Positions 5,241 to 5,469 of a DNA stretch of 9,836 nt are shown one piece after another (the stretch's first letter is position 1; every line of letters begins with the position of its first letter). The notes below the pieces were generated by a model. The model was not told the origin of the DNA, searched no databases, and saw only the letters and a program-made list of their open reading frames with translations. The translations under genes and the position numbers were made by a program. The stretch is taken from the IMG/VR virus record IMGVR_UViG_2563366976_000007. One strand, 5' to 3'. Source of the DNA: a virus. Lineage: Duplodnaviria; Heunggongvirae; Uroviricota; Caudoviricetes.

Positions 5241-5469
5241 TGTTCACCACTGTTCACCCTGTCATAAATATCTTTTGTATCAGTATGTTATAGGGTGAAC
5301 AGTTATTTATGAACTGTTCACCAAACTATTCACTGTTCACCTTTTTGATTGTTTATTGAGCTTCAAGGGTGAACAGTGGTGAACAGTTGGTGAATAGTTT
5401 TTGTGAAACTGTTCACCCCTTAACATTATGAATTAAAAGATAAAATATCAAAAGGTGAACAGGTGAAGG
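5241..5469. repeat. Iteron array (TGTTCACC / GGTGAACA, ~10 copies in both orientations): probable replication origin
   Basis: TGTTCACC at 5241, 5251, 5315, 5334, 5410. The reverse-complement GGTGAACA at 5294, 5368, 5378, 5454. Degenerate copies GGTGAATA (5389) and GGTGAAGG (5462). AT-rich spacers. Located just 3' of the primase gene, as for SaPI/PICI and many plasmid origins. Confidence 0.8.

What the first reader, a model, noticed from the sequence alone, without database searches (positions are those of the whole stretch)
5241..5469. Dense bidirectional TGTTCACC iteron array as origin
At least nine exact 8-mers plus degenerate copies within 230 bp, in both orientations and with AT-rich spacers, directly downstream of the primase-helicase gene. 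This is the expected cis-acting origin for an initiator of this class and defines the element's replicon specificity.
Basis: partly seen in the sequence, partly recalled or inferred. Interest (0 to 1): 0.45.

Follow-up and report, generated by a model that had tools for sequence, protein, structure and literature searches.

The report
Replication origin of an E. coli PICI
The repeat cluster is real and is almost certainly the replication origin of a phage-parasitic island (PICI) of E. coli, built from the same 8-base protein-binding sites that satellite phage P4 uses at its origin; this is a well-supported example of a known kind of origin, not a new one.

Summary
Observation confirmed. There are exactly nine TGTTCACC octamers, all within 5241-5461 (0.29 expected in the whole window), plus three degenerate copies.

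The 12 sites form two mirror-image arms (2 + 1 inverted + 3 | 3 + 1 inverted + 2) around a 26-bp AT-rich centre. Each arm matches the type-1 repeat block of the phage P4 origin in site order, spacing and flanks.

The gene just upstream (3409-5226) encodes a P4-alpha-type SF3 helicase. Its C-terminal domain matches the solved P4 origin-binding domain (1KA8, E 1e-24).

The element is an EcCICFT073-type PICI (int, alpA, pri-rep, ssb, perC, capsid genes, terS). A fragment of EcCICFT073 carrying pri-rep and this region maintained a plasmid; the rep mutant did not, and deleting the region cut colony numbers.

Relatives keep the architecture but change the octamer core together with the predicted wing of the binding domain. 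A sister island has swapped helicase, binding domain and iterons as one cassette.

The origin reading is supported. Three qualifications:
- A primase activity of the unusual N-terminal domain is unproven.
- The P4 feature at this position is crr, not ori.
- There is no second, distal site.

Verdict: new member of a known kind, low to moderate interest.

The parts
3409..5226 (+). Initiator gene ('pri-rep', annotated as DNA primase family protein). It has an N-terminal TOPRIM-like domain of about 130 aa, then D5_N, an SF3 helicase and a C-terminal winged-helix origin-binding domain.
   Evidence: ORF 3394-5226. RefSeq starts it at the ATG equivalent to 3409, and homologues begin at MK.APNLK. Pfam hits are D5_N, DUF5906 and Pox_D5. 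Residues 150-600 are 51% identical to P4 alpha 320-771.
3409..3779 (+). N-terminal domain of the initiator. It is kept when the helicase part is swapped. Fold is TOPRIM-like; primase activity is unproven.
4897..5187 (+). C-terminal origin-binding domain (winged helix, P4 alpha type). The putative wing hairpin MKRKTKHGLRSNVTL lies near its end.
   Evidence: Residues 502-598 match PDB 1KA8 at E 1.3e-24. Wing and iteron co-variation is shown.
5241..5341 (.). Left arm of the origin. Iterons at 5241+, 5251+, 5294-, 5315+, 5327+ (degenerate) and 5334+.
   Evidence: The reverse complement aligns with the right arm and with the P4 ori core.
5259..5293 (.). 35-bp AT-rich spacer inside the left arm; candidate melting site.
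   Evidence: 74% A+T. It contains the second least stable 30-mer of the window (5264-5293). Its length is 34-35 bp in 8 genera.
5342..5367 (.). Central AT-rich spacer and centre of dyad symmetry.
   Evidence: 73% A+T. Its length varies from 20 to 26 bp among relatives. It forms the loop of the predicted long hairpin.
5368..5469 (.). Right arm of the origin. Iterons at 5368-, 5378-, 5389- (degenerate), 5410+, 5454- and 5462- (degenerate).
   Evidence: Spacings of 10, 11, 21, 44 and 8 compare with 10, 11, 22, 43 and 10 in P4 ori 9310-9413. BLAST match to P4 ori is 78.7% at E 4e-6.
5418..5453 (.). 36-bp AT-rich spacer inside the right arm; candidate melting site.
   Evidence: 83% A+T. It contains the least stable 30-mer of the whole window (5419-5448). 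Its length is fixed at 36 bp in 8 genera.
3780..5573 (+). Exchangeable replicon cassette: helicase, origin-binding domain and iteron array.
   Evidence: This is the only central segment without homology to the sister island L076. There it is replaced by a DUF927 initiator plus 11 TAACCCGCA iterons.
5756..6166 (+). Island-encoded single-stranded DNA-binding protein, a likely accessory replication factor.
   Evidence: Pfam SSB at E 1.7e-16. Annotated as SSB in RefSeq.

Best explanation
The array is the vegetative replication origin of an EcCICFT073-type phage-inducible chromosomal island, and it belongs to the phage P4 alpha/ori lineage. After induction, the product of 3409-5226 would bind the 12 TGTTCACC-type sites through its C-terminal winged-helix domain. 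The two mirror-image arms would each nucleate one helicase ring, giving a head-to-head pair. The DNA would open at the easily melted 35/36-bp spacers or at the AT-rich centre, and the SF3 helicase would unwind outward in both directions. The island's own SSB would coat the single strands. Primers would come from the N-terminal TOPRIM-like domain or from host DnaG, and host DNA polymerase III would copy the circle. Octamer positions 4-6, read by the predicted wing of the binding domain, would set which initiator fires which origin. Shown here: the array, its symmetry, its homology to the P4 ori core, the homology of the binding domain, conservation of sites over spacers, iteron/wing co-variation, and cassette exchange. 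Inferred: binding, double-ring assembly, the melting site, the source of primers and bidirectionality.
For: Nine exact sites occur only here. The 12 sites form a 2+1+3 | 3+1+2 palindrome, and the single strand folds as one long hairpin (-57.8 kcal/mol, z -8.0). The P4 GenBank record annotates TGTTCACC as 'ori type 1 repeat' in both ori and crr. Each arm aligns with P4 ori 9297-9425, including the flank TTCACCCyTTAAC, and BLAST hits P4 ori. The initiator is 51% identical to the helicase and binding part of P4 alpha and matches 1KA8 at E 1e-24. The gene context is that of a PICI. The published test on EcCICFT073 pri-rep-ori supports a functional replication module at this position (PMC6092414). 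EcCICFT073 has the same architecture with TGTCTACC-type iterons. In 8 genera, iteron columns show 93% majority identity and 65% are invariant, against 76% and 30% for spacers (p 8e-11). Spacer lengths are fixed at 35, 13, 13 and 36 bp (34 and 12 in the left arm of L013). Close relatives keep 78-86% identity in the binding-domain core. The wing is 70-75% identical where the iteron is TGTTCACC and 20-32% identical, with 5 extra residues, where it is TGTCTACC or TGTCCRCC. Helicase, binding domain and iterons are replaced together in L076. Neither the window nor the near-identical (99.3%) island copy L003 has a second cluster.
Against: No binding or replication experiment was done on this sequence. 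The P4 feature at this position is crr, an auxiliary site. Wing and iteron co-variation is not universal: L040 has TGTTCACC-like sites with a divergent wing. The wing assignment rests on alignment to 1KA8 and on the generic winged-helix topology, because my model of the domain failed (pLDDT 38). In the EcCICFT073 test, deleting ori reduced colony numbers but did not abolish them. The N-terminal domain lacks a conserved DxD motif, so self-priming is doubtful.
Confidence: 0.85

Rival explanations
1. The array is a crr-like auxiliary site. It would be needed in cis to stimulate initiation, for example by looping, while DNA synthesis starts at a different and unrecognised site.
For: In P4 the array directly downstream of alpha is crr, not ori. 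P4-type relatives such as L017 carry two separate clusters.
Against: No second cluster exists in the window or in the near-identical (99.3%) island copy L003. The arms match the P4 ori core, not crr, in site order, spacing and BLAST hits. The arms are inverted, not 120-bp direct repeats. A pri-rep-ori fragment of EcCICFT073 was enough to maintain a plasmid.
Confidence: 0.05
2. The array acts mainly as a regulatory site. It could titrate or handcuff the initiator to limit copy number, or serve as an operator for the downstream ssb-perC-capsid genes, rather than being where replication starts.
For: Iterons of many plasmids do both jobs (general knowledge). The array lies between the initiator gene and the next operon genes. 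Up to 6 copies of this fragment occur in one genome.
Against: No sigma-70-like promoter or terminator was found in 5000-5700. The AT-rich, minimally stable spacers and the strict palindromic geometry fit a melting device. The homologous P4 block is an origin. This role could well exist alongside origin function.
Confidence: 0.06
3. The array is a packaging signal (pac or cos) or a recombination site of the island.
For: The island carries its own small terminase gene (9294-9836). Palindromes occur at some such sites.
Against: The array is exchanged together with the helicase and binding domain, while the terS region stays constant. Its octamer co-varies with the initiator's DNA-binding domain. 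It is the P4 alpha binding motif. The integrase and attachment sites are at the island's ends.
Confidence: 0.02

Closest known systems
Replication origin of Gram-negative PICIs, prototype EcCICFT073 (Fillol-Salom et al. 2018, ISME J, PMC6092414)
   Same: The position immediately 3' of pri-rep is the same. [quoted passage not shown] The neighbouring genes are the same (DUF4222, pri-rep, hypothetical, ssb, perC, capsid genes), and the initiator belongs to the same family (48% identity).
   Different: The octamer core is TGTTCACC here and TGTCTACC/TATCTACC in EcCICFT073. The wing of the binding domain differs. The integration site differs: cspD/yljB-clpS here, ycfD-phoQ there. This island has a terS gene where EcCICFT073 has another gene.
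Phage P4 ori (type 1 repeats bound by the alpha protein; GenBank X51522)
   Same: The octamer is identical. Each arm reproduces the P4 block of three tandem, one inverted and two tandem sites at 10, 11, 22, 43 and 10 bp, and shares flanking bases. The initiator shares the helicase (51% identity) and the origin-binding domain (1KA8).
   Different: P4 has one such block; here two blocks sit in inverted orientation. P4's type 2 repeats are absent. No distal crr partner is present. The array lies downstream of the initiator gene rather than about 2.3 kb upstream. The Zn-finger/DnaG-type primase domain of alpha is replaced by an unrelated domain of about 130 aa.
Phage P4 crr (cis replication region)
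   Same: The position right after the initiator gene is the same, as is the octamer, present in both orientations.
   Different: crr consists of two 120-bp direct repeats with a different site order (2, then 3 inverted, then 1). The window array is an inverted duplication of an ori-like block. There is no BLAST similarity to crr.
Palindromic origins of eukaryotic viral SF3 helicases (SV40 large T antigen, papillomavirus E1)
   Same: The helicase superfamily is the same (Pfam PPV_E1_C weak hit, D5_N). Both use short sites in inverted orientation next to AT-rich DNA, a layout that assembles head-to-head double hexamers (general knowledge).
   Different: There is no sequence homology between the origins or the binding domains. 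Double-hexamer assembly is only an analogy here and was not tested.

Membership tests
Gram-negative PICI origin (EcCICFT073 type) | Lies immediately 3' of the pri-rep gene, in a non-coding gap | tested here: met
   First iteron lies 15 nt after the stop codon; the gap is 5227-5513.
Gram-negative PICI origin (EcCICFT073 type) | [quoted passage not shown] | tested here: met
   Arms 5241-5341 and 5368-5469 lie around the 73% A+T spacer 5342-5367. EcCICFT073 has the same layout.
Gram-negative PICI origin (EcCICFT073 type) | Host element has PICI gene content and rightward transcription (int, alpA, pri-rep, capsid-morphogenesis genes, terS) at a dedicated att site | tested here: met
   RefSeq context lies between cspD/yljB and clpS.
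Gram-negative PICI origin (EcCICFT073 type) | Initiator-dependent autonomous replication of a pri-rep-ori fragment | not testable with these tools
   Tested only for EcCICFT073 in PMC6092414.
P4-type origin (alpha protein and type 1 iterons) | TGTTCACC octamers in both orientations | tested here: met
   Nine exact plus three degenerate copies. P4 annotation.
P4-type origin (alpha protein and type 1 iterons) | Cognate initiator with alpha-type SF3 helicase and C-terminal origin-binding domain | tested here: met
   51% identity over 452 aa. 1KA8 match at E 1.3e-24.
P4-type origin (alpha protein and type 1 iterons) | Bipartite: ori plus a distal crr required in cis | tested here: not met
   A single cluster in the window and in the near-identical island copy L003. 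P4 and L017 have two clusters.
P4-type origin (alpha protein and type 1 iterons) | Type 2 repeats (3 x CAYTTAAAGY) next to the type 1 block | tested here: not met
   Only three scattered 1-mismatch hits, at the chance level and none near the array.
P4-type origin (alpha protein and type 1 iterons) | Initiator carries the alpha N-terminal Zn-finger/DnaG-type primase domain | tested here: not met
   [not shown]
P4 satellite (element level) | sid-delta-psu capsid-size operon, epsilon, cos of P2 | tested here: not met
   None of the window ORFs matches these. The window instead encodes a lambdoid-type major capsid protein homologue, a decoration protein and terS.
Classical iteron plasmid origin (RepA/pi/TrfA type) | Direct repeats of 17-22 bp plus DnaA boxes and a Rep_3-type initiator | tested here: not met
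   Units are 8-10 bp and occur in both orientations. No DnaA box at up to 1 mismatch and no GATC site. The initiator is an SF3 helicase.

The most novel reading that the evidence does not exclude
P4-like satellites and this PICI are two otherwise unrelated families of phage parasites in the same hosts. Both use the identical octamer and related origin-binding domains. The initiator of one may therefore fire, or be titrated by, the origin of the other. That would give cross-activation or interference between co-resident satellites. The hypervariable wing of the binding domain, together with octamer positions 4-6, would then be a fast-evolving specificity switch that lets islands escape such cross-talk. 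The palindromic doubling of a P4-ori-like block would be what freed PICIs from needing a distal crr.
Probability: 0.2. Interest if true: 0.5.

Novelty: new member of a known kind. Interest (0 to 1): 0.22.

Why it matters
Practical value: this origin fragment is present in 594 of 5,426 complete E. coli genomes and carries no annotation in any of the 12 RefSeq records listed. The site map here could be transferred to all of them. Biological value is modest but real. The data link the PICI replicon directly to the biochemically characterised P4 alpha/ori system. They show that the origin is an inverted duplication of the P4 ori core. They also give a testable specificity code: the wing hairpin against octamer positions 4-6, with natural variants TGTTCACC, TGTCTACC, TGTCCRCC, TGTGCACC, TCTCTACC and TATACAYC. 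This could be used to predict which satellites can cross-replicate, or to build orthogonal initiator/origin pairs. It does not overturn anything known.

Tried and rejected
- A full-text search for the bare octamer returned only primer noise. One search failed on a term that was too short.
- The primary P4 papers (Flensburg & Calendar 1987; Ziegelin et al. 1993, 1995; Yeo et al. 2002) are not held. PMC413647 was not available. P4 facts beyond the GenBank annotation and passages in PMC2777425 and PMC6092414 therefore rest on general knowledge.
- The supplements of PMC6092414 contain no iteron sequences. I could not check whether this exact origin is drawn in its Fig. 2a.
- A single-sequence AlphaFold model of the C-terminal domain was unusable (pLDDT 38), so the wing assignment is by alignment only.
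- The promoter/terminator scan, Rfam, DnaA-box and GATC scans and the P4 type 2 repeat search were all negative. The three 1-mismatch IHF-like hits were not evaluated against chance.
- Chance or low complexity is rejected. A coding explanation is rejected, since no ORF of 50 aa or more overlaps the array (5241-5469).
- A cf-PICI classification is rejected. The near-identical copy L003 ends one small gene after terS, with no portal or large terminase.

Full report
**1. The observation**

TGTTCACC occurs nine times in the 9836-bp window. All nine lie between 5241 and 5461, five on the + strand and four on the - strand. Dinucleotide-preserving shuffles give 0.29 copies on average and never more than two.

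Allowing mismatches adds 5389- (TATTCACC), 5327+ and 5462-. The unit is really 9-10 bp, (A/C)CTGTTCACC.

The array fills a 287-bp non-coding gap (5227-5513). It starts 15 nt after the stop codon of the 3409-5226 gene. The gap is 67% A+T and its spacers are 69-83% A+T. The two least stable 30-mers of the whole window (5419-5448 and 5264-5293) both lie inside it.

**2. Anatomy**

The 12 sites are ordered, not merely dense. From left to right the orientations and start-to-start distances are:

`> >(10) <(43) >(21) >(12) >(7) | 34 | < <(10) <(11) >(21) <(44) <(8)`

This is a mirror image: two arms (5241-5341 and 5368-5469) around a 26-bp AT-rich centre (5342-5367). Each arm runs outward from the centre as three tandem sites, a 13-bp spacer, one inverted site, a 35/36-bp very AT-rich spacer, then two tandem sites.

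- As single-stranded DNA, the whole gap folds into one long hairpin (-57.8 kcal/mol; shuffles give -26.1 +/- 4.0; z -8.0). This is an independent confirmation of the dyad.
- Most distances are close to multiples of a helical turn.
- There is no DnaA box at up to one mismatch and no GATC site.
- No sigma-70-like promoter or intrinsic terminator was found, and no Rfam match.
- No ORF of 50 aa or more overlaps the array.

**3. The neighbouring protein**

The 3409-5226 product has D5_N, an SF3 helicase core (DUF5906, with a weak papillomavirus E1 hit) and a Pox_D5 C-terminal domain.

- Residues 150-600 are 51% identical to residues 320-771 of phage P4 alpha (E 2e-162).
- Residues 502-598 match the crystal structure of the P4 origin-binding domain, 1KA8, at E 1.3e-24.
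- The first 150 residues are unrelated to alpha's primase domain and match nothing in Pfam or NCBIfam.

The 'primase' label is therefore plausible but unproven. It comes from a family name (TIGR01613 'primase_Cterm') that actually covers the helicase part.

**4. The element**

The window encodes the following, all on the + strand:

- a tyrosine integrase and AlpA
- an Icd-like protein and DUF4222
- the initiator, then the array
- a small conserved ORF, SSB and PerC
- a major-capsid homologue and a head-decoration protein
- a small terminase

A 99.3% identical copy lies between cspD/yljB and clpS in E. coli 23CRST038. It ends one small gene after terS.

This is the gene order of Gram-negative phage-inducible chromosomal islands. 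EcCICFT073, the prototype, has the same order around its pri-rep gene.

**5. Comparison with P4**

The P4 GenBank record annotates TGTTCACC as 'ori type 1 repeat'. It marks six copies in ori (9310-9413) and ten in crr. crr consists of two 120-bp direct repeats lying immediately downstream of alpha.

The only phage-database DNA hits of the window's gap are P4 ori (78.7% over 75 nt, E 4e-6) and one Klebsiella satellite-like record.

- P4 ori has sites at `< <(10) <(11) >(22) <(43) <(10)`. This is the same order and spacing as the window's right arm and, mirrored, its left arm.
- An alignment of both arms with P4 9297-9425 also shows shared bases outside the octamers (TTCACCCyTTAAC.T..TG).
- Each arm is therefore a homologue of the P4 ori core, while the position after the initiator gene is that of crr.
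- P4's type 2 repeats are absent.
- There is no second cluster in the window or in the near-identical island copy L003. P4 and a P4-like Erwinia locus each have two clusters.

**6. Comparison with the tested PICI origin**

Fillol-Salom et al. 2018 (PMC6092414) make three relevant statements.

- In Gram-negative PICIs, the region immediately 3' of the replication initiator gene has the organisation and function of the origin that occupies this position in Gram-positive PICIs.
- An EcCICFT073 pri-rep-ori fragment maintained a thermosensitive plasmid at the restrictive temperature. The rep mutant gave no colonies, and deleting ori significantly reduced colony numbers.

I fetched EcCICFT073. Its gap has the same 2+1+3 | 3+1+2 layout, but with TGTCTACC/TATCTACC/TCTCTACC sites. 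Its initiator is 48% identical to the window's.

**7. Evidence from relatives**

Seventy-two loci encoding relatives were retrieved from one genome per species.

*Position and architecture.* In the PICI-type relatives, a single array of about 220 bp follows the gene with the same architecture. The octamer differs by lineage:

| Octamer | Where found |
|---|---|
| TGTTCACC | window, Raoultella, Kluyvera, Pluralibacter, Citrobacter, Klebsiella |
| TGTCTACC | E. ruysiae, Kluyvera georgiana, Enterobacter |
| TGTCCGCC / TGTCCACC | Serratia |
| TGTGCACC | Proteus |
| TCTCTACC | Symbiopectobacterium |
| TATACAYC | Xenorhabdus, Photorhabdus |

*Selection on sites.* Across eight genera that share TGTTCACC, iteron columns have 93% majority identity and 65% are invariant. 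Spacer columns show 76% and 30% (Mann-Whitney p 8e-11). Spacer lengths are fixed at 35, 13, 13 and 36 bp (34 and 12 in the left arm of L013), while spacer sequence drifts. Only the central gap varies, from 20 to 26 bp.

*Co-variation.* Among close relatives, the core of the binding domain is 78-86% identical to the window's whatever the iteron. The segment after EYGxEY behaves differently:

- It is 70-75% identical where the iteron is TGTTCACC.
- It is 20-32% identical, and five residues longer, where the iteron is TGTCTACC or TGTCCRCC.
- P4, at only 49% core identity, keeps KR.TK.G...N.TL and the same octamer.

By alignment to 1KA8 and the usual winged-helix topology (PMC2777425), this segment is the beta-hairpin wing. 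The rule is not absolute: a Rahnella locus has similar sites with a different wing.

*Cassette exchange.* E. coli N10 carries the same island at the same site. Window segment 3780-5573 has no homologue there. That segment covers the helicase, the binding domain, the array and the first codons of the next ORF. In its place are a DUF927 initiator and eleven TAACCCGCA iterons in both orientations. The N-terminal domain is retained, and elsewhere it is also found fused to RepA/AAA_25 helicases.

**8. Mechanism**

*Shown.* The array is a conserved, selected, palindromic set of sites. Their sequence tracks the DNA-binding domain of the adjacent SF3 helicase. The array is homologous to an origin bound by a homologous protein.

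*Inferred.*
- The initiator binds the sites through its C-terminal domain.
- Each arm seeds one ring, giving a head-to-head pair as at other SF3 origins.
- Melting starts in the minimally stable 35/36-bp spacers or at the centre.
- Unwinding is bidirectional.
- The island's SSB (5756-6166) assists.
- Priming is by the N-terminal domain or by DnaG.
- The absence of DnaA boxes fits the DnaA independence known for P4 (general knowledge).

I put 0.85 on 'cognate origin'.

**9. Rivals**

- *crr-like enhancer without initiation (0.05).* This is disfavoured by the lack of any partner site and by the ori-like arms.
- *Purely regulatory or copy-control role (0.06).* This cannot be excluded as an additional function.
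- *Packaging or recombination site (0.02).* This is contradicted by the cassette exchange with the helicase rather than with terS.

**10. Novelty**

The kind is known. PICI origins 3' of pri-rep with two iteron sets are published, and TGTTCACC is the classic P4 iteron.

What this analysis adds is limited:
- the explicit homology of each arm to the P4 ori core
- the inverted-duplication architecture without a crr
- the wing/iteron co-variation
- the cassette boundaries

The fragment is in 594 of 5,426 complete E. coli genomes, with up to six copies per genome, and carries no annotation in the 12 records listed. I rate it a new member of a known kind, interest 0.22.

The most novel reading not excluded is replicon cross-talk between P4-like satellites and PICIs that share the octamer. 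I give it probability about 0.2.

Noticed in passing
[not shown]
   Followed up: partly
L076 5777-6095 (E. coli N10, same island backbone): An alternative replicon cassette: a DUF927 initiator followed by eleven TAACCCGCA/TGCGGGTTA iterons in both orientations, with no TGTTCACC at all. It looks like a second, unrelated origin type at the same position.
   Followed up: partly
window 5418-5430 and 5282-5293; L001 (P4) 9361-9375: A short motif, TTAAC/TAAC, 2-4 nt after the lone inverted iteron, is conserved in both arms, in eight genera and in P4 ori (TTCACCCyTTAAC.T..TG). It could be an extended iteron or a site for another factor.
   Followed up: no
window 1868-2587 (+), 1969-2142 (-), 2200-2397 (-): The 239-aa + strand ORF has no family match. 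It overlaps two small minus-strand genes that RefSeq annotates in the near-identical copy (a hypothetical protein and a YlcI/YnfO family protein). AT skew turns negative here, which suggests the minus-strand genes are the real ones. They are the only leftward genes in the island.
   Followed up: no
window 5514-5759: A small conserved ORF (81 aa, phrog_1231, unknown function) starts right after the origin. The right boundary of the exchangeable cassette (about 5573) falls inside its first 20 codons.
   Followed up: no
window 6057-6449 and 5756-6166: The island encodes a PerC-family transcriptional activator (Pfam E 1e-42) and its own SSB directly downstream of the origin. According to PMC6092414, some PICI PerC homologues activate the LEE pathogenicity island.
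   Followed up: no
L002 (LR881103.1, 'Escherichia phage vB_KppS-Ant') 8024-8253; L010 (K. pneumoniae ATCC 13883): A record deposited as an induced prophage carries the same int-alpA-primase-origin module. Its iteron map is identical to that of a K. pneumoniae chromosomal locus. The module is followed by capsid, portal and connector genes, so it looks like a capsid-forming PICI rather than a phage.
   Followed up: no
L017 (Erwinia rhapontici) 52-137 and 6508-6603: A P4-type alpha homologue has two separate TGTTCACC clusters, about 2 kb upstream and 2.1 kb downstream of the gene. This is the bipartite ori/crr pattern, but crr is displaced from the gene end.
   Followed up: no
L018-L075 (Xenorhabdus, Photorhabdus): Many Xenorhabdus genomes carry several alpha-type helicase genes each (for example five loci in X. 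innexi). They have weaker arrays of TATACAYC-type sites downstream.
   Followed up: no
E. coli genome collection: The 287-bp origin fragment occurs in 594 of 5,426 complete E. coli genomes, with up to six places in one genome and two places on plasmids. It carries no annotation in any of the 12 records listed.
   Followed up: no
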